DNA of 64,000 nt from a virus (lineage: Duplodnaviria; Heunggongvirae; Uroviricota; Caudoviricetes): positions 10,237 to 74,236 of the IMG/VR virus record IMGVR_UViG_2974644367_000001, one strand, 5' to 3'. A program made the position numbers and the translations under genes. The notes beneath the pieces are model-generated. The model did not search any database. It was not told the DNA's origin and worked only from the letters and a program-made list of their open reading frames with translations. Positions 10,627 to 61,203 of the stretch are shown one piece after another. Positions within the stretch are counted from its first letter, which is position 1. The number at the start of each line of letters is the position of its first letter.

Positions 10627-12846
10627 ATGGCTAAATACACAGTTGATGAATTCGTAATTGAGCTAGGTTTCAATGAGAAGGTCATCAAAGGTTTACAAAG
10701 GGTTGAAAAGACTGCTATGGCAGCAGCAACCCGAATTGAAAACCGCCTCAACAAAGCCGTATCAATCGACGGGAACAAGTCTAAAGCTGGTTTCGATAAG
10801 ATTGTACGAAACGCTCAAACCGCTGCTAACAGTGTTAACAGGGCTTTCTCCAAGAGTATGGATTTTGGGAATGCTGGTAAGGCTTCCGTGAAGGGCGTAG
10901 AAACGGCTGCAAGAGCCTCTGCAAAGCGTATTAAGAAAGAGATGCAGGATGCCTTTAACGTTCGTGGTAATGGGCGTGGAGGCGGTTCTGGAGGCTCTGG
11001 AGGGGGTAGACCTCCGAGAGGTGGTAGCGGTAGTGGTGGAGGTTCTTCTAACTCTGCTGCACGTTCAATTGAAAGAACCTACTCAAACAACTACTATTCT
11101 GGTCTGACACGTAAACTGGAAAGTATGGGTGTTCGTGGTCAGGGTCTTGCTGGTAAGTTCCGTTCAGATATTACAGGTCTTCGTGATGAAGCACTGAAAA
11201 ACCCTGCAACGAACTTAGCAAACTATAACATGCAAGTCAAGGCATCTATCGACGCTATGAAGCGTTGGATTTCTGCTGAGAATGCTGAGGCTAAGGCTCG
11301 TCGTGAACAGACATGGCTTCTGGACAGAGCTAACTCATCACTGACACAATGGATTGGTGGATTCGCTTCACTGTACACGGTGATTGAGGGTATCAAGAAA
11401 GTTGTAGATGCTGGTGTGGCTCGTCAGGGTCAGATGCTTTCTGCACAGGCTGTCTTCAAGGGTCAAGCTGGTGATGCTAAAACGTTCGCTGCTGGTTTCT
11501 CACAGCAGATTGGACAGGGCTTCACAGAGACTATGAAACAGTATACAGGGTTCGCTGCGGGTGCTCAAAACGCACTTGGTTATCAGGGTACACAGGACTT
11601 CTATAAGAACGCTGCAACGTTTGGTCGTATTCGTGGTCTGGATGCTGAACAGTTGAAAGGTATCATGGTTGCGTTCACTCAGATGGCTTCTAAGGGTCGT
11701 GTACAGGCTGAAGAACTTCGTGGACAGTTGGGCGACCGTTTGCCCGGTGCTGAACAGATGTTCGCTGATGCTTTAGGTGTTAACACTCAGCAGCTTGACG
11801 CATTGATGAAAAATGGTAAACTGCTTGCTAAAGATGTCCTTCCACGTGTCTCATTGCAGATGAAGAAGATGTCTGATGAGGTTGGTGGTCTTGACCGTGT
11901 TTCTGAAATGGCGGTTACTGGTATCGGTCGTGTTAACGCTGCTATCGAGAACAACCTTGTAAAAGCCTTTGACGGTGCTGAAGGTGGTCTTGGAAGATTC
12001 ACAAGTTCCCTTGCAAACATGCTTTCAGACTCATCAGCAATCAGTGAAGCGATGGGTGGTATCTTCGGTGAAGTCCTGACAGTCGCTGCTAAGGGTATTG
12101 ACTATGCAGATGAGTGGGTTCGTCATATCTCTGCGGCTCTTCTGAGAGTGTCAGCTTGGTACGATGAATTGGACGATGGACAGAAGAAGCTGATTAAGTC
12201 AGCAGCCGACTTTGCAATTGCTGTTGGTGAAGTTCTTGTGGTTGTCAAGGCTCTTCGCGGTGTAACTGGAATCATCTCAGCAGTTCTTGGTCTCAAGCAA
12301 CTTGCTACAGGTGGAGCAGCAGCCGGAGCGGGTGCAGGAGCGGCAGGGGCTGGCGCAGCAGGTGGTGGCATCATGGCAAGAATCTTAGGATTCGCTAAAG
12401 GTGCTCCAAAGGCAGCAGGGCCGATTGGTTGGGCGCTTATGGCTAAAGCTGGTGTAGATGCTTCTGGCGTTGAACAGTCTTATCCAAACGCTTTAGGTAC
12501 TGGAAATCCAATTGCTCAGGCTCTTAACTGGCTGACAAACCCCTCTAAGGTTCTCGGAACATCTGACCAAGATTCAATCACGAACAGCCCGTTCACTCGT
12601 ATGATGGGTTCACTTGGTGATTGGCTTCAGGGTAACAATGCACTGAGTCCTCAGAATGGTTACAACCCACAGAACATGTTCGCTGTACCAAGTATGTTCA
12701 ACCCTGCACAGCAGACGGTTCAGAACAATCAGCGTATGACGTTCAATATCAACCTTGACAGTCGTAAGATTGGTGAATACCAAACAGATGTTGTTACACA
12801 CAACAACGAAGATGTCAACATTAACACTGAGCACATGGGGGATTAA
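10627..12846 (+). CDS. Tail tape measure protein
   Basis: A 739 aa helical protein with Gly-rich (GGGSGGSGGG) and Ala-Gly-rich tracts. It follows the frameshifted chaperone. Confidence 0.8.
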   Translation: MAKYTVDEFVIELGFNEKVIKGLQRVEKTAMAAATRIENRLNKAVSIDGNKSKAGFDKIVRNAQTAANSVNRAFSKSMDFGNAGKASVKGVETAARASAKRIKKEMQDAFNVRGNGRGGGSGGSGGGRPPRGGSGSGGGSSNSAARSIERTYSNNYYSGLTRKLESMGVRGQGLAGKFRSDITGLRDEALKNPATNLANYNMQVKASIDAMKRWISAENAEAKARREQTWLLDRANSSLTQWIGGFASLYTVIEGIKKVVDAGVARQGQMLSAQAVFKGQAGDAKTFAAGFSQQIGQGFTETMKQYTGFAAGAQNALGYQGTQDFYKNAATFGRIRGLDAEQLKGIMVAFTQMASKGRVQAEELRGQLGDRLPGAEQMFADALGVNTQQLDALMKNGKLLAKDVLPRVSLQMKKMSDEVGGLDRVSEMAVTGIGRVNAAIENNLVKAFDGAEGGLGRFTSSLANMLSDSSAISEAMGGIFGEVLTVAAKGIDYADEWVRHISAALLRVSAWYDELDDGQKKLIKSAADFAIAVGEVLVVVKALRGVTGIISAVLGLKQLATGGAAAGAGAGAAGAGAAGGGIMARILGFAKGAPKAAGPIGWALMAKAGVDASGVEQSYPNALGTGNPIAQALNWLTNPSKVLGTSDQDSITNSPFTRMMGSLGDWLQGNNALSPQNGYNPQNMFAVPSMFNPAQQTVQNNQRMTFNINLDSRKIGEYQTDVVTHNNEDVNINTEHMGD

Positions 12847-54307: not shown

Positions 54308-56140
54308 ATGAACAATACACTGATTGCTACTCTGGTATGTGACGCTTACAAATCCGGTCATAAATTCCAATACCCTGCGGGTCTGGATTCACTGTTTCTT
54401 AACATTACTCCACGTAATGCGAAGTATTTTCCCGGTGGCACAGAGGTAGTTGCAAACTTCGGTTCAACCTCTTTCCGTGATACTTGGCTTGTCAAGTTCT
54501 GGAATGAAAACTTCTTCAACGTTCCAAAAGATGTTGTCATGGAAATTCATGCAGCTTATATGGATGGTGTACTTGGGAAAGGCACACTGACTCATGACCA
54601 CATTGCAGCACTGCACGACTTAGGTTATCTGCCTATCATTGTTCGTGCTCTGCCAGAGGGTTCTGTGTCACCTGTCAAGGTTCCTGTGATGACTATCGAA
54701 ACTACGCACAAAGACTTTGCATGGGTCGGTGGCTATCTGGAAGACCTGTTCAGTTCTAACCTGTGGAAGGTTATGACCATTGCAACTATCGCAATGAAGT
54801 ATCGTGTTCTTCTGGAGCGTTTCGCTGAAGAAACTGGTGTTGACAAAGGCTTCGTTGACTATCAGGCTCACGACTTTGCATTACGTGGTATGTCTGGTGT
54901 TCACGATGATATTCAGAATAACATTGGTCATCTGGCATTCTTCAAAGGGACTGACTCATTCCCTGCAACGTGGTCTGTGAAACAGTTTTACGGTAACGGT
55001 GTTCAGATTAGTGACATCGCAGGTTCTGTACCAGCAACCGAACACAGTGTTACCTGTGCAAACATCGCAGTAGAAGCAAGTCAGATGGTGTTATCTTCCG
55101 GTGCGTTCGGTGATGGTAATCCTCAGACACAGGCAGCACTGCTTGCAAAAGCTGAACAGAAGTTCTTTGAGCGTCTTCTGACAGAGGTTTACCCAACTGG
55201 CATTCTCTCTATGGTTGGTGACACAAACAACTGGTATGATACCGTCACAACCAAAGTGCGTGAACTGAAAGATGTCATCATGAAACGTGATGGTAAACTG
55301 GTTCTTCGTCCAGATTCCGGTATTCCAGAGCACATCGTTGCTGGCTATCGTTGTATTGAGATTGAGAGTGCAAAAGCAGTCATTGCTGAAGAGTACAAAT
55401 CAGGTCGCCTTGGTTGGGCTTCGGTTCTGGAAAGCAATCTTGCTGACATTAAAGAACTGACCATTGACAAGCTGACTGCAAATGATTGCCAGATTATCAA
55501 GAACGCTGGCTATGAAGTTGTAGTTGATGCTGAAGATTTTGATGGTGCATACTGCGTCTTCCTTGACGAGAAGATTAAAAGCCCATCTGTCAAAGTTGGT
55601 CGCTATGTACAGATTGAAATTCTGGAAGGTGCTATCGAATCACTGTGGAAAATCTTTGGTGGTGATGTAACAACTAAAGGTTACAAGGTTCTGGACGAAC
55701 ACATTGGCCTGATTTACGGTGACTCTATCACACTGGAACGTGCTGAAAATATTCTTCAGCGTCTGAAAGAGCGTGGATTCGCAAGCTGCAACGTGGTGTT
55801 TGGTGTGGGTTCATTCACTTACCAAATGCTGACACGTGATTCACTCAGCTTTGCTATCAAGGCGACTGTGGCAACTGTTGACGGGATTAACTATCCACTG
55901 TCAAAAGACCCAATCACTGATGATGGTACGAAGAAATCAGCTACAGGTTACATCATCGTTCGTGACACTGGAACAGGTGAACCGTTGCACATGATTGATG
56001 GTCTGAGTCGTCAAGCATACGACAACCTGAACCAGCAGGGATTGAATGAACTCCGTGTGATTTTTGCAGACGGCGAGTCAATCAACTATGAAGAGAACAT
56101 TCTCACAATCCGTGACAAGTTCTTGAAAAACATGAAGTAA
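54308..56140 (+). CDS. nadV: Nicotinamide phosphoribosyltransferase
   Basis: Whole-length resemblance to the NAMPT family. Its pairing with prs is typical of phage NAD+ salvage. Confidence 0.8.
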   Translation: MNNTLIATLVCDAYKSGHKFQYPAGLDSLFLNITPRNAKYFPGGTEVVANFGSTSFRDTWLVKFWNENFFNVPKDVVMEIHAAYMDGVLGKGTLTHDHIAALHDLGYLPIIVRALPEGSVSPVKVPVMTIETTHKDFAWVGGYLEDLFSSNLWKVMTIATIAMKYRVLLERFAEETGVDKGFVDYQAHDFALRGMSGVHDDIQNNIGHLAFFKGTDSFPATWSVKQFYGNGVQISDIAGSVPATEHSVTCANIAVEASQMVLSSGAFGDGNPQTQAALLAKAEQKFFERLLTEVYPTGILSMVGDTNNWYDTVTTKVRELKDVIMKRDGKLVLRPDSGIPEHIVAGYRCIEIESAKAVIAEEYKSGRLGWASVLESNLADIKELTIDKLTANDCQIIKNAGYEVVVDAEDFDGAYCVFLDEKIKSPSVKVGRYVQIEILEGAIESLWKIFGGDVTTKGYKVLDEHIGLIYGDSITLERAENILQRLKERGFASCNVVFGVGSFTYQMLTRDSLSFAIKATVATVDGINYPLSKDPITDDGTKKSATGYIIVRDTGTGEPLHMIDGLSRQAYDNLNQQGLNELRVIFADGESINYEENILTIRDKFLKNMK

Positions 56141-56148
56141 TTTATAAA

Positions 56149-56171
56149 GGGACTCTTCGGAGTCCTTTTTT
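56149..56171 (+). terminator. Intrinsic terminator (UUCG hairpin family)
   Basis: GGGACTCTTCGGAGTCCTTTTTT. Confidence 0.7.
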
Positions 56172-56181
56172 ATTTTATCTG

Positions 56182-56210
56182 TTGACATCACCACACCAAA
56201 TGAATTAAAG
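56182..56210 (+). promoter_or_regulatory. Sigma70-like promoter (TTGACA-N17/18-TAAAGT)
   Basis: Strong -35 element. It is followed by the shared leader motif at 56226..56242. Confidence 0.45.
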
Positions 56211-56249
56211 TAATCACATCGAAAGCAAACAACTAACTGAGGAAATATC

Positions 56250-56711
56250 ATGAATCGTCGCATCACTGCCGTATCAAAAGACTTCTACAATCGTCGCATG
56301 GGTGAACTGGTAAAGCAATTCCCTAACGTGTTTAACAAGTCTCTTCCTATGCCGCTGGCGATTGGTGTTCACAAGACTCTGGCAGAGCAGACTGAGTTTT
56401 CTCGCAAAGAAATCAATGCGATGTTATCAGTGTGGACTCGTCGCCATGAGTATGTTTGTGCAGCCGTTACTCACGGTTTCCGTGTAGACCTGAACGGCGA
56501 GTTCGTTGAAGAAATCTCAGAAGAACATCTGTATGGGTTTAGCCGTGCATTTGATAATCTGACCAAGAAGCAAAAGGCTGGCTTTACTCGCCGCTGGAAC
56601 CGTGCTGATACCACTGACCAGTTCGTATGTGAACCATTCGAGTGCTACGTTGAAGCGAAGGTTGAAGAGCCTGTGGAAACCGAAGAGGTATGTCAAGAAT
56701 GCCTGATTTAA
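56250..56711 (+). CDS. FinO/ProQ-domain RNA-binding protein with a C-terminal Cys4 cluster
   Basis: It aligns to the E. coli ProQ N-terminal domain. Shared features are FPxxF, PLAIGV, the SxxEIxxxLxxWT pattern, RVDLNGE and EEHLYG. Confidence 0.7.
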   Translation: MNRRITAVSKDFYNRRMGELVKQFPNVFNKSLPMPLAIGVHKTLAEQTEFSRKEINAMLSVWTRRHEYVCAAVTHGFRVDLNGEFVEEISEEHLYGFSRAFDNLTKKQKAGFTRRWNRADTTDQFVCEPFECYVEAKVEEPVETEEVCQECLI

Positions 56712-57040
56712 AGATGCAGTCGTTCAATATCAATGCTCACTTTGTACTTGAAGAAGCAGAGATTGATAAGGCTATTGAAGCACTGGAGTTACTTGCAGAG
56801 CATCATAGCAACCGTTCAAGTTGGGAGCCTTTATCTGAAGAGTCAACGGTGACAATTGTCATCACAGTTAAGGGTTGTGAAGATACGTTGGGTTGGACTC
56901 AAAAGCTGCAAAAGCAGTCAAGAGGTGCTTTAAAAGCGTATCTGAAAGATGCCCGACAAAAAGACGGTATCAAGTTCGCAAGCACTTCACGAATCCGTGG
57001 GGCGGTTGTATTTGAACCATCAGTAATTTTCTACTCATAA
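56690..57040 (+). CDS. Hypothetical protein
   Basis: ORF coupled to the upstream gene. Confidence 0.4.
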   Translation: MSRMPDLKMQSFNINAHFVLEEAEIDKAIEALELLAEHHSNRSSWEPLSEESTVTIVITVKGCEDTLGWTQKLQKQSRGALKAYLKDARQKDGIKFASTSRIRGAVVFEPSVIFYS

Positions 57041-57050
57041 GGTAAGAAGA

Positions 57051-57215
57051 ATGGACGTTCACACTGGTCTTAACATCTTACTGGTTCTGGTTATTGTGGG
57101 CGGTCTATTAGCTGCCAAGTACCGTGTAGACTCATGCTGCAAGCATTGTGATGGTACAGGCGTTAAAGATGGTTGTGTATGTCCATTCTGTCACGGAACC
57201 GGAGAAGATGATTGA
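57051..57215 (+). CDS. 54 aa membrane-anchored peptide with two DnaJ-type CxxCxGxG zinc-finger motifs
   Basis: The translated ORF (not in the supplied track) is MDVHTGLNILLVLVIVGGLLAAKYRVDSCCKHCDGTGVKDGCVCPFCHGTGEDD. Confidence 0.45.
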   Translation: MDVHTGLNILLVLVIVGGLLAAKYRVDSCCKHCDGTGVKDGCVCPFCHGTGEDD

Positions 57216-57289
57216 CAGTCACCTGTCAACTGTTTTAGAATCTGTTTTGGGGTGAACAACACCCCTTAACTCAAAAGGATAATCCCGAC

Positions 57290-59740
57290 ATGAAAATGAA
57301 TTACGAACATCAAGCAGTCCAGAAAAGTTCTAATACTCTGGAGACTACTCAGGCACAGATTATGATGACACCTGAGATGCTTGACCTGCTTTCTTCTGGT
57401 GTTTATGAGTATAAGGCACGTGCAGTTATCCGTGAATTATCTTGTAATGCACTTGATGGTCACATGGTAAAAGGCAATGTCGATGAACCATTTGACATTC
57501 ACTTACCAACCACCTTCGAACCTTACTTTGAGATTCGTGATAAAGGTGTCGGTCTGTCCCATGAAGCAATCATGAACATGTACCTGAACTATGGTGCTTC
57601 GACGAAGAACAATTCGAATGACTTCATCGGTGCTATGGGTATCGGTTCAAAGTCTCCGTTTGCTATCTCTGATTCGTTCACTGTCCGTTCATACTTTGAG
57701 GGTAAGGTAACGACTTATCAGGCATACAAAGAGAACGGTATCCCTAACCTAACTAAGCTGATGGAAAAGCCAATGGCAGAGGGTGAGGAAACTGGTCTGG
57801 CTGTTCGTGTAGCTGTTCGTCAGGAGTTGACTGATGAGTTTCGTCGTGAAGCTGCTTACGTCTTTGAAACGTTTGCTGTGCGACCTAACATCAACATTGA
57901 CATAAACTATATTGACCGTAACTCTATGGTTATGTCTGAGAAAGCTGGCGTCTACACAGCATTTCACGGCACAGGGAACTCTTACAGTCGTCGTGGTGAC
58001 AACTTCCTATATGTGGTGATGGGGTCTATCCGTTATCCTGTCAAGCTGGAAGCGGTGATGTCTGATGATGAGATGTCAGCTATCAACAACAGTCCTATGA
58101 TTGATTCTATCGGCTGTCTGTGGGTCTACGTCCCAATTGGTTCAGTGTCCATCTCTGCGAGTCGTGAATCACTCCAGATGAATGAGTCAACCAAGAAGTT
58201 TATTCTGGATGCCTTTAAAGACATCTCGTCTGACTTCATGGCAGACCTTCAGAAAGGTTTTGATGACATTGACGACTACTGGAAAGCTGGTCATCATTGG
58301 GTTAACCTGAAAAGCAAGCTGCGTAGTCACAGCCAGATTGCATACTTTGCCAAGAACTTGACTTGGAAAGGTAAGCAGATTTCTCGTCTGGTTGAAGAGG
58401 CTGATGCAGCCCGTCTGGTTCCTCGCCTTGATGAGTTTGGCAATCAGATGTACAAAAAGGATTCTTCCGGTCAGCCTCTGGAACTGAACGGTCAGAAAGT
58501 GCCTTTGATGATGAACTACGAAGCATATTGCTATCGCTGGAACAACCTTACTTCAACATCGTCTTGGGCGAAACGTGAGCGTTGGACTAAGAACAACCTT
58601 GAAACAGACATGGCTAAGGTCTCTCCTTGGAAGACTACCAATGACTTCTTCAATGGTGTATTGTTCTTTGTCTATGACCGTATCACCCGTTCAGGTACTG
58701 AGAAGACAACTGGTAAAGAGCAAGTGTTGCGTGGTATGGGCTTTGCTTTCCAAGAGTCCACTAAAAACAACTTGAACTACCTGTGCATGGTTGACTCTCG
58801 CGCTGAGGCAGAGATTATCTGGAACCGTCACAAAGTACCAGAAGACCAACGTCACTTCGACATGGCTTCTAAGTATGAAGACTGCTACACCCCTGCAAAG
58901 CGTCAGAAAGGTGTGGTGAAGTTATGGGTTCACAGTTATGCAGAGTATCACAAGAAACAAAATATTGGTGATTACCGTAACGGGTTTATCAATACTGGTT
59001 ACGTGAACTCTGAAGAGTTTAAGGTTGACTTGTCTGTTCTTCAGGACGATGAGAATGAACACCTGTACCTTCAGTCAAACAACAACGTAATCACTAACGG
59101 TGTGTTTAACGGTAAAGGTGCAACTGATGTTGCCAAACTGATTGCACCGTTAATCACTGGTAAGATTGTGGTGTTTAACAAGGCCAACTGGAAAAAGATT
59201 CCCGAAGATTGGGAGAATGCCAGTGATGAAAACGTTCTGCGTAAACTGATTGACAAACATCCTCGACTCTGGAAAGCTATGAACCAGTCGATGATTGAGT
59301 CTGCTATGCCAGACCGCTTTAAGCGTCTTGCAGCGATGGGTGTTGCTCTGCCAAACAGTAATGATTACTTTGGTCAGTCTATGCGTGGTCGTGTTCTGAA
59401 GTGGGAAGGTGCAAGACAGGTTCTTGAACAAATCTTGAATAAGCCTTGCTATTCGATTCCACAGATGGTACAGTCTTGCTCAGTCAGTCACAGCAACATC
59501 CTTGGTTCCATTTACAAGATGCTGCCACACTGTAAGCTGCATACTTCCATCAAGAAAGCGCGTCAGCGTATGGAAGCAGATATTGAGAAGAACAAAAACA
59601 ACCTGTTCAACTCTAAATATAAAGTGCTGAAGTTTATTGACTTCAACCGTGTGCAACTGTTAGAATTAGCCGAAGCACTTGACATCAACTTTGACAGAAC
59701 GTATGTTAACGATGATGGTGTAAGATTCTACAACCATTAA
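57290..59740 (+). CDS. rIIA: rIIA-like protein (N-terminal GHKL/Bergerat ATPase domain)
   Basis: GHKL motifs ELSCNALDGH, IRDKGVGL and GAMGIGSKS. 816 aa. It lies immediately upstream of rIIB. Confidence 0.65.
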   Translation: MKMNYEHQAVQKSSNTLETTQAQIMMTPEMLDLLSSGVYEYKARAVIRELSCNALDGHMVKGNVDEPFDIHLPTTFEPYFEIRDKGVGLSHEAIMNMYLNYGASTKNNSNDFIGAMGIGSKSPFAISDSFTVRSYFEGKVTTYQAYKENGIPNLTKLMEKPMAEGEETGLAVRVAVRQELTDEFRREAAYVFETFAVRPNINIDINYIDRNSMVMSEKAGVYTAFHGTGNSYSRRGDNFLYVVMGSIRYPVKLEAVMSDDEMSAINNSPMIDSIGCLWVYVPIGSVSISASRESLQMNESTKKFILDAFKDISSDFMADLQKGFDDIDDYWKAGHHWVNLKSKLRSHSQIAYFAKNLTWKGKQISRLVEEADAARLVPRLDEFGNQMYKKDSSGQPLELNGQKVPLMMNYEAYCYRWNNLTSTSSWAKRERWTKNNLETDMAKVSPWKTTNDFFNGVLFFVYDRITRSGTEKTTGKEQVLRGMGFAFQESTKNNLNYLCMVDSRAEAEIIWNRHKVPEDQRHFDMASKYEDCYTPAKRQKGVVKLWVHSYAEYHKKQNIGDYRNGFINTGYVNSEEFKVDLSVLQDDENEHLYLQSNNNVITNGVFNGKGATDVAKLIAPLITGKIVVFNKANWKKIPEDWENASDENVLRKLIDKHPRLWKAMNQSMIESAMPDRFKRLAAMGVALPNSNDYFGQSMRGRVLKWEGARQVLEQILNKPCYSIPQMVQSCSVSHSNILGSIYKMLPHCKLHTSIKKARQRMEADIEKNKNNLFNSKYKVLKFIDFNRVQLLELAEALDINFDRTYVNDDGVRFYNH

Positions 59741-59792: not shown

Positions 59793-60920
59793 ATGACTAT
59801 GACTAAAGCTCAGATTGATGCTCAGATTTTCGCAGATGTTTCTAACGGTATGACCAAAGCAGCAGCCGCTGAAAAATATGGTACGTCTGCCCGTTCCATC
59901 GGTCGTGCGATTGAGCGTCATGAGAAGTCTGGCGGTAAAGCCCCTGCCAAAGCCGCTGTAAAGCCCGCTAAGGCGACTTCTAAGAAGTCTGGTAAGAAGG
60001 CTAAGTCAACTGCCAAAGCCGCTCCTAAGCGTTCTGACGTGGCTAAAGCTGCACCTTACAAGCCAGAAGAAAAGACTCAGGTAGCCAGTACCGTGCTGGA
60101 AGCACTGGAGAAAGGTGATAAAGTTGAGTACATCAACACGTCATCATCTGTTGTTCTGACTCTGAACGGTGAATCAGAGATTGTTGAAGAAACTCATCCG
60201 AACTTCAAAGCAATTCAGATTGCTATTGTTTCAGGCGACTTCAAACAAGCGTTTGCTCTGATGAACATTCGTAAGTCCATTGAGAACTTCACTCAGGGGG
60301 CAATCACCATCAAAGGTGACAAACTGTTCTACGGTACTATTGAAATCCGTTCAACGATTGCACAGCGTATTCTGGAACTGATGCGTCAGGGTGATGATGG
60401 CTTTAAAACTCTGGTCAGCTTCTTCGAAAAACTGATGGAGAACCCATCACGCAACTCTGTTGAACAGCTTTGGGGCTTCATCTCTCACAACGACATTGAG
60501 ATTGACTCTGAAGGTTATATCATCGGTTGGAAGCGTGTTCGTAACAACGGTAACGGTCTGGTTGATAGCCGCACCAGCAAAGTTCCTAACAACATTGGTA
60601 ACATCGTGTCAATGCCTCGCTGGATGGTTGACGCAGACAAAAACGTTACCTGTTCACAGGGTCTGCATGTTGGCGCTTGGGATTACGTCCGTTCATTCTC
60701 TGGCGATACCACTATCAAGGTTCGTGTCCATCCACGTGACGTTGTATCTGTACCAACAGACTACAATGACCAGAAGATGCGTTCTTGCCAGTATGAAGTT
60801 GTCGGTGTGGTTGACAGCAACCGTAAAATCATCGACGTGACCAACCTGAAAGGTCTGGCTACAGAAGTGGTTGTTGTCGGCTCTGCTGGTGAACTGATTT
60901 CCCGTAAACCACGTGTCTAA
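59793..60920 (+). CDS. rIIB: rIIB protein
   Basis: The C-terminal block RVHPRDVVSVPTDYNDQKMRSCQYEVV matches T4 rIIB KVHPRDVVSIPIDYNDAKMRTCQYEVV. The N-terminal HTH and a Lys/Ala-rich linker are also present. Confidence 0.85.
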   Translation: MTMTKAQIDAQIFADVSNGMTKAAAAEKYGTSARSIGRAIERHEKSGGKAPAKAAVKPAKATSKKSGKKAKSTAKAAPKRSDVAKAAPYKPEEKTQVASTVLEALEKGDKVEYINTSSSVVLTLNGESEIVEETHPNFKAIQIAIVSGDFKQAFALMNIRKSIENFTQGAITIKGDKLFYGTIEIRSTIAQRILELMRQGDDGFKTLVSFFEKLMENPSRNSVEQLWGFISHNDIEIDSEGYIIGWKRVRNNGNGLVDSRTSKVPNNIGNIVSMPRWMVDADKNVTCSQGLHVGAWDYVRSFSGDTTIKVRVHPRDVVSVPTDYNDQKMRSCQYEVVGVVDSNRKIIDVTNLKGLATEVVVVGSAGELISRKPRV

Positions 60921-60960: not shown

Positions 60961-61203
60961 ATGTACTATCTGATTGTTGTGCTGTCCTATCTCGTTGCGA
61001 TACTGACTTGGCCTGTTGCGATTGTCAAGTTCCTGTATGAAATCTTCAAACTCGATGTACCGTTCTGGTCATCACTGATTTCGAATGGCCTTGGTGGTGT
61101 GGTAATCTTCATCATTGCAGTTGTGTTCATCATCCTCTTCGGACGATTGCAATTTGAGAAATCATCAAAGAAACTCTTGTCACGCACTAACCGTTGGCAT
61201 TAA
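60961..61203 (+). CDS. Small membrane protein (2 TM)
   Basis: Hydrophobic 80 aa. Confidence 0.45.
   Translation: MYYLIVVLSYLVAILTWPVAIVKFLYEIFKLDVPFWSSLISNGLGGVVIFIIAVVFIILFGRLQFEKSSKKLLSRTNRWH

What the first reader, a model, noticed from the sequence alone, without database searches (positions are those of the whole stretch)
57051..57215. Unannotated 54 aa membrane-anchored peptide with tandem DnaJ-type CxxCxGxG zinc fingers
An ORF below the 60 aa track cutoff encodes an N-terminal transmembrane helix (LNILLVLVIVGGLLAA). It is followed by two zinc-finger motifs, CKHCDGTG and CPFCHGTG. This is the signature of the DnaJ zinc-finger hairpin, here in a minimal membrane-tethered form. It is translationally positioned right after the ProQ-like operon and before rIIA. 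A minimal DnaJ zinc-finger hairpin of this kind could mimic or sequester DnaK/DnaJ clients at the membrane, or act as a small redox or zinc switch.
Basis: seen in the sequence. Interest (0 to 1): 0.55.

Follow-up and report, generated by a model that had tools for sequence, protein, structure and literature searches.

The report
Membrane-anchored zinc-knuckle peptide upstream of rIIA
This is a real, conserved 54-residue phage gene for a small inner-membrane protein with a single anti-TRAP/DnaJ-type zinc-binding hairpin predicted to face the cytoplasm; every Felix-O1-like phage examined has it next to rIIA, it is already annotated (sometimes wrongly as "DnaJ"), and its function is untested.

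Summary
The ORF at 57051-57215 (+) is real. The window is Erwinia phage vB_EamM-M7, where it is already annotated as gp087 (family phrog_3931). Relatives label it "membrane protein", "heat shock protein, DnaJ-like" or "dnaJ".

It encodes one hydrophobic helix followed by two CxxCxGxG motifs. With a fixed 6-residue linker and four invariant Cys, these can build only one Zn(Cys)4 site, as in 53-aa anti-TRAP. That is half a DnaJ cysteine-rich domain, and there is no J domain.

Orthologues lie directly upstream of rIIA in every Ounavirinae genus checked (about 300 records, roughly 1:1 with rIIA), even where RIIA identity falls to 32%. Felixounavirus copies show pN/pS 0.064, with 19 of 23 variable sites at codon position 3. 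Charge distribution predicts an N-out/C-in topology, so the zinc knuckle is cytoplasmic.

Best reading (inferred): a membrane-tethered protein-binding knuckle, most likely working with RIIA/RIIB, which lack membrane segments. Rivals are an independent host-targeting binder (plant FIP, with the same architecture, binds FtsH), a redox role, or a holin. Nothing supports DnaK/DnaJ mimicry.

Interest is modest: the gene and motif were already noted in annotation, and only the link to rII is new.

The parts
56146..56211 (+). Terminator-like hairpin (56146-56169) after the NAMPT gene, followed by a sigma-70-like promoter TTGACA-N18-TAAAGT (56182-56211). Together they are the likely start of the gp085-gp086-gp087 transcription unit.
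   Evidence: Consensus scan. These are pattern matches only and have not been shown to function.
56250..56711 (+). gp085, a ProQ/FinO-domain protein and the first gene of the unit. It is present at this position in Kolesnikvirus but not in Felixounavirus, Yersinia phage P778 or Pectobacterium phage Wc4-1.
   Evidence: Pfam PF04352, E = 7.7e-19. Annotations.
56699..57040 (+). gp086, a 113-aa protein of unknown function (phrog_27920). A 29%-identical homologue sits at the same position in metagenomic contig L014. No homology is detectable to the 111-aa gene at the same position in Felixounavirus.
57039..57049 (+). Shine-Dalgarno-like AAGGTAAGAAG, 8 nt upstream of the ATG.
   Evidence: Read from the sequence. 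Conserved in 7 Kolesnikvirus genomes.
57051..57215 (+). gp087 CDS: a 54-aa bitopic membrane protein with a C-terminal zinc knuckle.
   Evidence: Purifying selection on orthologues: pN/pS 0.064.
57066..57116 (+). Hydrophobic core of the transmembrane helix (residues 6-22). The modelled helix spans residues 3-27 (nt 57057-57131).
   Evidence: Mean Kyte-Doolittle score 2.55 over 17 residues. AlphaFold2 helix.
57138..57161 (+). Motif 1, CKHCDGTG (Cys30, Cys33, Gly35, Gly37). All four residues are invariant in the family.
57180..57203 (+). Motif 2, CPFCHGTG (Cys44, Cys47, Gly49, Gly51 invariant; Pro45 present in most members). It follows motif 1 after a 6-residue linker.
57212..57241 (+). Sigma-70-like promoter TTGACA-N18-TAGAAT for rIIA. 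Its -35 hexamer overlaps the gp087 stop codon and lies inside a perfect palindrome, TTGACAG-N4-CTGTCAA (57212-57229).
   Evidence: Both hexamers and both palindrome arms are invariant in 7 genomes.
57290..59740 (+). rIIA (816 aa). The N-terminus shows weak GHKL/Hsp90-family similarity, and there is no predicted TM segment.
59793..60920 (+). rIIB (375 aa), with no predicted TM segment.

Best explanation
gp087 is a genuine, translated accessory gene, probably expressed early or in the middle of infection. Its product is a single-pass inner-membrane protein with its 5-residue N-terminus outside and its 32 C-terminal residues in the cytoplasm. Those residues fold as a beta-hairpin knuckle around one Zn2+ held by four invariant cysteines. 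This is the anti-TRAP type of two-motif zinc hairpin, equal to half a DnaJ cysteine-rich domain. It has no J domain and is not a chaperone. It most likely works as a membrane-tethered protein-binding module. The most likely partners are RIIA and RIIB, encoded immediately downstream. They are the phage's defence against membrane-depolarising abortive-infection systems and have no membrane segment of their own. The small protein would recruit or organise them at the inner face of the membrane. Shown here: the gene, its conservation, the selection on it, the motif geometry and the synteny. Inferred: zinc binding, topology and a protein-binding role. Speculative: the identity of the partner.
For: The gene is real. 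In five Felixounavirus genomes 19 of 23 variable sites are at codon position 3, and pN/pS is 0.064. Intact copies occur in 257 of 258 Felixounavirus/Suspvirus/Mooglevirus-type records and in about 36 Kolesnikvirus records. The four Cys and four Gly are invariant, and the linker is 6 residues in 11 of 13 lineages. The zinc hairpin is supported by an ungapped alignment to anti-TRAP with identical CxxC-x10-CxxC spacing. Foldseek's best PDB hits are anti-TRAP zinc domains at rmsd 0.6-0.8 A over 24 residues. Anti-TRAP, DnaJ and the cysimiditides all bind Zn through this motif pair (PMC2896485; bioRxiv 10.1101/2024.10.02.616296). For topology, 0 of 13 lineages have K or R before the helix, all 13 have 2-7 K/R after it, and the N-termini are acidic or neutral, unlike signal peptides. 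Linkage to rII is seen directly upstream of rIIA in Kolesnikvirus, Felixounavirus, Suspvirus, Mooglevirus, Yersinia phage P778, Pectobacterium phage Wc4-1 and metagenomic lineages whose RIIA is only 32-50% identical. Gene content upstream varies (ProQ gene, an extra 115-aa gene, or nothing) while the junction with rIIA persists. The spacer is only 28 nt in Felixounavirus. 298 records carry a full-length Ounavirinae-type rIIA against about 299 with the small gene. RIIA and RIIB have no Kyte-Doolittle 19-residue window above 1.6. The only other clade with the gene, Krischvirus, also encodes rIIA.
Against: Synteny within one virus subfamily is a single evolutionary observation and may simply reflect a frozen gene order. 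In Krischvirus RB49 the gene sits next to nrdH, about 28 kb from rIIA. T4 and most rII-encoding phages lack the gene, and T4 rIIA.1 is unrelated, so RIIA/RIIB do not generally need it. The PhageMaP screen of the Felixounavirus Bas63 named only g84 and g85 (RIIB and RIIA) as co-essential counters of QatABCD and did not mention the adjacent small gene, although coverage of a 177-bp gene is unknown. In Kolesnikvirus a promoter-like site separates it from rIIA. In contig L016 a 164-aa ORF intervenes. No direct evidence of translation, zinc binding, topology or interaction exists. One lineage (Pectobacterium) has the opposite charge bias.
Confidence: 0.4

Rival explanations
1. The protein is an independent host-targeting binder. 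The tethered zinc knuckle would bind and modulate a host inner-membrane protein, regardless of RIIA/RIIB. One candidate target is the AAA protease FtsH. Plant FIP has the same layout (TM anchor plus two CxxCxGxG motifs, N-terminus lumenal and C-terminus stromal) and binds FtsH5. Alternatively it could act like anti-TRAP, which inhibits its target through the zinc domain.
For: The architecture and predicted topology match FIP (PMC5915565). Anti-TRAP and the cysimiditides show that this hairpin serves as a protein-recognition handle. The Krischvirus copy is unlinked to rII. The gene was not reported as co-essential with rIIA/B in Bas63. It sits in an early-type operon with sigma-70-like promoters, typical of host-takeover genes.
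Against: Nothing in the sequence points to FtsH or any other specific target. This reading does not explain the near-universal adjacency to rIIA. There were no PADLOC or anti-defence family hits.
Confidence: 0.28
2. The protein is a thiol-disulfide or redox (or zinc-release) switch. DnaJ-like zinc fingers such as plant CYO1 or LQY1 have disulfide isomerase or reductase activity, and the peptide could act on membrane-proximal cysteines.
For: The M7 protein is Cys-rich, with 6 Cys in 54 residues. In RB49 the gene overlaps the 3' end of the nrdH glutaredoxin gene by 11 nt. That DnaJ-like zinc fingers have oxidoreductase activity is my own recollection, and PMC5915565 mentions CYO1.
Against: Only the four metal-ligand Cys are conserved, and the extra Cys are lineage-specific. 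No thioredoxin-like fold is present. The nrdH adjacency is seen in one clade of a densely packed T4-like genome.
Confidence: 0.08
3. The protein is a holin or lysis-timing factor. The Felix O1 genome paper listed gp131, the orthologue, among five holin candidates because it is small and has one TM domain.
For: PMC3185647. The protein is small, has a single TM and a charged C-terminus, and lies next to 'r' genes.
Against: The candidacy rested on size and one TM domain alone. Curated annotation of the Felixounavirus Mushroom assigns a class-III holin (N-in/C-out) elsewhere and calls this gene 'heat shock protein, DnaJ-like'. The predicted topology is the opposite, N-out/C-in. The gene sits in an early or middle unit, not with the endolysin or spanin, and its Felix O1 neighbours peak at 25 min, not late. 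gp090 after rIIB, with two TM segments and a basic tail, is a more conventional holin-like protein. An invariant zinc knuckle is not a holin feature.
Confidence: 0.06
4. One reading: the protein is a DnaJ mimic that sequesters DnaK/DnaJ clients at the membrane.
For: There is sequence similarity to the DnaJ cysteine-rich domain (1exk, E = 6.7e-5; TIGR02349 partial, E = 2e-5). Several GenBank records label the gene 'dnaJ' or 'chaperone'.
Against: There is no J domain or HPD motif, no G/F region and no C-terminal substrate-binding domains. Only 2 of 4 motifs are present, so the two-centre V-shaped DnaJ domain cannot form. Model scores are 24 bits against a 377-bit cut-off, and no Pfam DnaJ model was reported. 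The 'dnaJ' labels are automatic over-annotation.
Confidence: 0.04
5. This is not a protein-coding gene. On this view the strong nucleotide conservation in Kolesnikvirus reflects an RNA or DNA element, and the ORF is incidental.
For: Within 7 Kolesnikvirus genomes only 3 of 165 nt vary. pS is 0.023 against 0.28-0.31 in the flanking genes.
Against: Felixounavirus orthologues diverge freely at synonymous sites (pS 0.268) while the protein is preserved. The protein architecture persists down to about 30% identity across genera. There is no Rfam match, and the RNA folding z-score is only -1.45. The flanks are mosaic, so a recombination junction or a recent sweep explains the pattern.
Confidence: 0.02

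Closest known systems
Anti-TRAP (RtpA) of Bacillus, PDB 2bx9 / 3lcz / 3ld0
   Same: It is about the same size (53 aa). It has two CxxCxGxG motifs separated by a 6-residue linker (CxxC-x10-CxxC) that together bind one zinc. It is the best Foldseek match, at rmsd 0.6-0.8 A over 24 residues. The zinc hairpin is used to bind another protein.
   Different: Anti-TRAP is soluble and has a C-terminal helix that drives trimer and dodecamer assembly. gp087 instead has an N-terminal TM helix and ends 3 residues after motif 2. The RtpA model scores 14.5 bits against a cut-off of 65. The biology is unrelated (trp attenuation).
Cysteine-rich (zinc finger) domain of type I Hsp40 DnaJ, PDB 1exk
   Same: It has the same CxxCxGxG motif and gives the best sequence match among solved structures (E = 6.7e-5).
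   Different: DnaJ has four motifs forming two zinc centres, pairing motifs 1+4 and 2+3 (my own recollection). That domain is embedded between a J domain with its G/F region and the C-terminal domains. gp087 has two motifs, can form only one centre, and has none of the other domains.
Plant FIP (FtsH5-Interacting Protein, At5g02160) and other J-less DnaJ-like zinc-finger proteins (BSD2, CYO1, OR, HCF222, PSA2)
   Same: FIP has a hydrophobic membrane anchor followed by a C4 zinc finger with exactly two CxxCxGxG repeats. Its predicted topology is N-terminus lumenal and C-terminus stromal, the equivalent of N-out/C-in (PMC5915565). BSD2 appears among the Foldseek hits.
   Different: FIP is eukaryotic, plastid-targeted by a transit peptide, and longer. 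Homology to gp087 beyond the shared motif was not tested. FIP's partner (FtsH5) is known, whereas gp087's is not.
Felix O1 gp131, Mushroom gp2, phiEa21-4 gp117, RB49 ORF046c (phrog_3931)
   Same: These are orthologues or close family members with the same architecture. They are already deposited and annotated as conserved hypothetical membrane protein or DnaJ-like.
   Different: None in kind. None has been characterised experimentally, and transcription of Felix O1 gp131 was 'not tested'.
Cysimiditide RiPP precursors
   Same: They have two CxxCxGxG motifs forming a Zn-tetracysteine hairpin that acts as a recognition handle for a partner enzyme.
   Different: They are actinobacterial, soluble and modified by an adjacent methyltransferase. 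No such enzyme is encoded next to gp087.

Membership tests
phrog_3931 (phage protein family of unknown function) | Full-length match to the family profile | tested here: met
   E = 3.7e-18, residues 1-53 against profile positions 6-56 of 59.
DnaJ / type I Hsp40 | J domain with an HPD motif | tested here: not met
   The protein is 54 aa. Pfam reports no DnaJ (J-domain) hit at E <= 10, and no HPD tripeptide occurs in the sequence.
DnaJ / type I Hsp40 | Cysteine-rich domain with four CxxCxGxG motifs (two zinc centres) | tested here: not met
   Only two motifs are present, in every family member.
DnaJ / type I Hsp40 | Score above the curated cut-off of the DnaJ equivalog models | tested here: not met
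   TIGR02349 scores 24.2 bits against 377.2. NF010874 scores 18.7 against 619.
Anti-TRAP (RtpA; NF058604 / PF15777) | Two CxxCxGxG motifs with a 6-residue linker forming one Zn(Cys)4 site | tested here: met
   The alignment is ungapped with identical spacing. The linker is 6 residues in 11 of 13 lineages. Superposition gives 0.6-0.8 A over 24 residues. Zinc binding itself is inferred and was not measured.
Anti-TRAP (RtpA; NF058604 / PF15777) | Score above the model cut-off, and a C-terminal trimerisation helix | tested here: not met
   NF058604 scores 14.5 bits against 65. Pfam reports no PF15777 hit. The protein ends 3 residues after motif 2, and the only helix is the N-terminal TM.
FIP-type membrane-anchored DnaJ-like zinc-finger proteins (plants) | TM anchor followed by two CxxCxGxG repeats, with the C-terminus on the stromal/cytoplasmic side | tested here: met
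   The architecture is read from the sequence. Topology follows the positive-inside rule in 13 lineages. FIP features are as described in PMC5915565. Topology is predicted, not measured.
FIP-type membrane-anchored DnaJ-like zinc-finger proteins (plants) | Sequence homology to FIP, and binding to FtsH | not tested
Interaction needs an experiment.
Holins (class III, T4 T-like) | Single TM with N-in/C-out topology, late expression, association with lysis genes | tested here: not met
   The charge bias predicts N-out/C-in. The gene lies in a unit with sigma-70-like promoters. Curated Mushroom annotation places the class-III holin elsewhere. Lethality and permeabilisation cannot be tested here.
rII module (functional partner of RIIA/RIIB) | Conserved adjacency and co-occurrence with rIIA/rIIB | tested here: met
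   The gene is directly upstream of rIIA in all Ounavirinae lineages sampled. About 299 records carry the gene and 298 carry the rIIA. It is not adjacent in Krischvirus.
rII module (functional partner of RIIA/RIIB) | Same loss-of-function phenotype as rIIA/rIIB, and physical interaction | not testable with these tools
   PhageMaP reports only g84 and g85 as QatABCD counters in Bas63, and per-gene data were not available.

The most novel reading that the evidence does not exclude
The small protein is the missing membrane-anchoring third subunit of the RIIA/RIIB system in Felix-O1-like phages. Its zinc knuckle would dock the GHKL/Hsp90-like RIIA ATPase, or RIIB, to the inner membrane, where the complex blocks depolarising abortive-infection systems such as RexAB or QatABCD. 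An alternative novel reading is that it is a phage-encoded FIP-like regulator of the host membrane protease FtsH. Either would give a small, tractable handle on the long-unsolved biochemistry of rII.
Probability: 0.2. Interest if true: 0.7.

Novelty: new member of a known kind. Interest (0 to 1): 0.35.

Why it matters
How RIIA and RIIB work has been an open question since Benzer's rII mutants. They are membrane-associated, have no membrane segments, and have no known partners. Recent screens show that they counter more than one abortive-infection system: RexAB in T4 and QatABCD in Bas63. A 54-58-residue membrane-anchored zinc knuckle kept next to rIIA in about 300 genomes is a cheap and specific candidate to test as a partner. 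Independently of that, the result corrects a recurring mis-annotation ('dnaJ / chaperone / heat shock protein') of a protein that cannot be a J-domain chaperone. It also adds a phage, membrane-tethered example to the small class of two-motif Zn-tetracysteine hairpins (anti-TRAP, FIP, cysimiditides). If the linkage proves to be only frozen synteny, this is an ordinary small accessory membrane protein.

Tried and rejected
- An apparent natural knockout in phage vEam_PM_6 was rejected. The divergent patch contains a 23-nt exact match to the reverse complement of the Illumina P5 adapter (AGTGTAGATCTCGGTGGTCGCCG, adapter sequence from my own knowledge). It is therefore an assembly artefact.
- An RNA element as the cause of the Kolesnikvirus nucleotide conservation was rejected. 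There is no Rfam hit, the folding z-score is -1.45, and the pattern is absent in Felixounavirus.
- T4 rIIA.1, which occupies the same position upstream of rIIA, is unrelated: it has no Cys and no TM.
- gp086 is not detectably homologous to the Felixounavirus 111-aa gene at the same position (BLASTP E = 0.034, hhalign probability 0.8%). I therefore do not claim a conserved four-gene module.
- The IMG/VR pattern scan returned only known members plus unrelated proteins carrying the motif, including a phage DnaJ and other larger proteins.
- PADLOC gave no hits.
- The Aeromonas phiARM81mr hit is a 233-aa protein upstream of the holin, with Q-antiterminator-like PHROG matches, and is not a family member.
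- The third CxxCxGxG in the window, at 11274, is out of frame in a 739-aa gene and is a chance match.
- I could not confirm the Bas63 gene number of the orthologue.

Full report
**Identity of the window and the observation.**
The region 56250-57700 is 100% identical to Erwinia phage vB_EamM-M7 (NC_041978; Ounavirinae, Kolesnikvirus). The ORF at 57051-57215 (+) exists exactly as described, with an ATG start and 54 codons: MDVHTGLNILLVLVIVGGLLAAKYRVDSCCKHCDGTGVKDGCVCPFCHGTGEDD. It is preceded by an AAGG-containing ribosome-binding site. It is not unannotated. It is gp087 (YP_009606755.1) in the source record and belongs to PHROG family phrog_3931 (E = 3.7e-18, unknown function). Close relatives label it "hypothetical protein", "chaperone protein" or "dnaJ: chaperone protein". 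In the six-frame translation of the window, CxxCxGxG occurs three times: twice in this ORF and once out of frame elsewhere. No paired motif appeared in 100 shuffles.

**Anatomy of the protein.**
- Residues 6-22 form a strongly hydrophobic segment (mean Kyte-Doolittle 2.55).
- AlphaFold2, run on a 17-sequence family alignment, gives mean pLDDT 83.8. It predicts a helix at residues 3-27 followed by short beta-bridges.
- Across 17 family members that share only about 26-46% identity, the invariant positions are the initiator Met, Cys30, Cys33, Gly35, Gly37, Cys44, Cys47, Gly49 and Gly51. A Pro after the third Cys is present in most members.
- The extra Cys29 and Cys42 of M7 are not conserved.
- The linker between the motifs is 6 residues in 11 of 13 lineages and 7 in the other two.
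- Four ligands can hold one metal, so the domain is one zinc knuckle and not two fingers.

**Comparison with solved structures and curated families.**
- Among solved structures, the best sequence matches are the E. coli DnaJ cysteine-rich domain (1exk, E = 6.7e-5) and an ungapped alignment to Bacillus anti-TRAP (3lcz, 2bx9; E about 0.3) with identical CxxC-x10-CxxC spacing.
- Foldseek's top PDB hits for the model are the anti-TRAP zinc domains (rmsd 0.6-0.8 A over 24 residues). BSD2, DnaJA2 and lambda Q rank below them.
- Published work shows that this motif pair binds zinc in anti-TRAP and DnaJ (PMC2896485). In the cysimiditides it forms a Zn-tetracysteine hairpin that serves as a protein-recognition handle.
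- DnaJ membership fails. There is no J domain, only two of four motifs, and 24 bits against a 377-bit cut-off.
- Anti-TRAP membership also fails. The score is 14.5 bits against 65, and there is no C-terminal trimerisation helix.
- The "dnaJ", "chaperone" and "heat shock protein" labels in GenBank are therefore over-annotation of a shared motif.

**Topology.**
In 13 of 13 lineages there is no Lys or Arg before the hydrophobic helix, and the short N-termini are acidic or neutral. Two to seven Lys/Arg follow the helix, and in 10 of 13 lineages at least one lies within the first ten residues after it. The N-terminus therefore does not look like a Sec signal peptide. The positive-inside rule predicts N-out/C-in, which puts the knuckle in the reducing cytoplasm where a Zn(Cys)4 site is stable. 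The Pectobacterium lineage is the one exception. This is a prediction, not a measurement.

**Evidence that the gene is real and under selection.**
- In five Felixounavirus genomes the orthologous ORF has pS 0.268, pN 0.017 and pN/pS 0.064. Of 23 variable nucleotides, 19 are at codon position 3.
- tblastn finds the Felixounavirus-type protein in 258 phage records, 257 of them essentially full-length. The Kolesnikvirus type is in about 36 records.
- Rare aberrant copies look like sequencing or assembly errors. The vEam_PM_6 "frameshift" is a patch with a 23-nt exact match to the reverse complement of the Illumina P5 adapter (adapter sequence from my own knowledge). The phiWec177 and NJ12 copies are frameshifted or truncated.
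- I found no direct expression data. In Felix O1 the orthologue gp131 was "not tested" by RT-PCR, while its neighbours gp130 and gene 1 (rIIA) peak at 25 min.

**Genomic context.**
- In M7 a terminator-like hairpin and a TTGACA-N18-TAAAGT site precede gp085 (a ProQ/FinO-domain protein), gp086 and gp087. A TTGACA-N18-TAGAAT site overlaps the gp087 stop codon and precedes rIIA.
- The most informative result is comparative. A 52-60-aa gene with the same layout lies directly upstream of rIIA in every lineage below, even where RIIA identity to M7 falls to 32-50%:
  - Suspvirus SUSP2
  - Mooglevirus Sf13
  - Yersinia phage P778
  - Pectobacterium phage Wc4-1
  - two metagenomic lineages
- The number of records with a full-length Ounavirinae-type rIIA (298) equals, within counting error, the number with the small gene (about 299).
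- RIIA and RIIB have no hydrophobic segment that reaches a TM threshold.
- RIIA's N-terminus has weak GHKL/Hsp90-family similarity.

**Evidence against a functional rII link.**
- The only other clade with the gene, Krischvirus (RB49, JSE), places it next to nrdH, about 28 kb from rIIA.
- T4 lacks it, and T4 rIIA.1 is unrelated.
- The PhageMaP study of Bas63 named only RIIA and RIIB as co-essential counters of QatABCD.
- One contig has a 164-aa ORF between the small gene and rIIA.

**Mechanism.**
I commit to the following. The protein is a bitopic inner-membrane protein whose cytoplasmic Zn(Cys)4 knuckle is a protein-binding module. Confidence in this structural core is high, about 0.85. Its most likely role is to tether or organise RIIA/RIIB at the membrane, with confidence about 0.3-0.4. 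The main rival is an independent host-directed binder. The closest architectural precedent is Arabidopsis FIP, which has a TM anchor, two CxxCxGxG repeats, and an N-lumenal/C-stromal topology. FIP binds the membrane protease FtsH5 (PMC5915565). Anti-TRAP likewise uses the knuckle to inhibit its target.

Three further readings are unlikely:
- **Holin.** This idea was floated for Felix O1 gp131 on size and one TM domain alone. The predicted topology, the position in an early or middle unit, and curated holin assignments elsewhere all argue against it.
- **Redox role.** The only hints are the cysteine richness and the nrdH adjacency in RB49.
- **DnaK/DnaJ mimicry.** This has no support.

**An unexplained side observation.**
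Within seven Kolesnikvirus genomes the ORF is almost invariant at the nucleotide level, with 3 of 165 sites variable. pS is 0.023 against 0.28 and 0.31 in gp086 and rIIA. The flanks are mosaic. Rouille has a divergent gp086 but a close rIIA, and Omen-type phages show the reverse. Recombination junctions therefore fall at or near this gene. Felixounavirus does not show the effect, there is no Rfam hit, and the folding z-score is only -1.45. I read it as a conserved recombination linker or a recent sweep, not as an RNA element, but this is unresolved.

**Novelty and verdict.**
The gene, its single TM domain and its DnaJ-like cysteine motif were already recorded in annotation. Felix O1 gp131 was described in 2010 as "CHP, membrane protein (1 TMD)". 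Mushroom gp2 was annotated in 2015 as "DnaJ-like, contains cysteine-rich domain". My literature searches found no functional study of this gene in phages.

Four points are added here:
- The domain is an anti-TRAP-type single zinc hairpin, not a DnaJ.
- The predicted orientation is cytoplasmic.
- There is quantitative evidence of purifying selection.
- The linkage to rIIA holds across the subfamily at close to 1:1.

This is a new, membrane-tethered phage member of a known kind of mini-domain. Interest is moderate to low (0.35). It would rise substantially only if the rII or FtsH connection were shown experimentally.

Noticed in passing
window 57040-57215: In Kolesnikvirus only, gp087 is ultraconserved at the nucleotide level: 3 variable nt of 165 in 7 genomes, and pS 0.023 against about 0.3 in both flanking genes. 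The flanks are mosaic and recombination junctions fall here. The pattern is absent in Felixounavirus, and no RNA family or unusual fold was found.
   Followed up: partly
window 57212-57265: The rIIA promoter-like site (TTGACA-N18-TAGAAT) has its -35 hexamer inside a perfect 7-bp palindrome, TTGACAG-N4-CTGTCAA. The arms are invariant and the loop varies across 7 genomes. Downstream, the hairpin at 57249-57265 (GGGGTG-AACAA-CACCCC) shows a compensatory change (GGGGAG...CTCCCC) in Omen, phi63_307 and SPARTY. These may be an operator and a 5'-leader structure.
   Followed up: partly
window 60961-61203 (+), gp090: An 80-aa protein directly after rIIB has two strong TM-like segments and a basic C-terminal tail (phrog_22449, unknown function). 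It has a class-II-holin-like layout, or it may be a second small membrane protein flanking the rII pair.
   Followed up: partly
window 56250-56711 (+), gp085: A phage-encoded ProQ/FinO-domain RNA-binding protein (Pfam E = 7.7e-19) heads the operon. It is present at this position in Kolesnikvirus but absent in Felixounavirus, Yersinia P778 and Pectobacterium Wc4-1.
   Followed up: no
window 57290-57850 (RIIA residues 26-187): There is weak but consistent similarity to the GHKL/Hsp90-family ATP-binding domain (NCBIfam PRK14083 partial, E = 5e-12; TRAP1/Hsp75 PDB chains, E about 1e-3). Pfam reports nothing for RIIA.
   Followed up: partly
L008 (PP079182, vEam_PM_6), about 1185-1215: The deposited genome carries a 23-nt exact match to the reverse complement of the Illumina P5 adapter inside the gp087 orthologue. 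This creates a false frameshift, and the gene was left unannotated in that record.
   Followed up: yes
L017:2525-2683 and L018:521-679 (protein P0039): A 52-aa protein with the same TM + 2xCxxCxGxG layout is encoded in a bacterial-looking contig between a TrpRS/Trp-repressor pair and an Asp/Asn-tRNA synthetase gene. This is a curious echo of anti-TRAP's link to tryptophan.
   Followed up: no
window 56095-56184: A second nucleotide-level ultraconserved block in Kolesnikvirus covers the 3' end of the NAMPT gene and the terminator-like hairpin.
   Followed up: no
L004:1429-1587 (RB49 ORF046c): The Krischvirus family member overlaps the 3' end of the nrdH glutaredoxin gene by 11 nt, which suggests translational coupling. 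It is not near rIIA.
   Followed up: partly
[not shown]
   Followed up: partly
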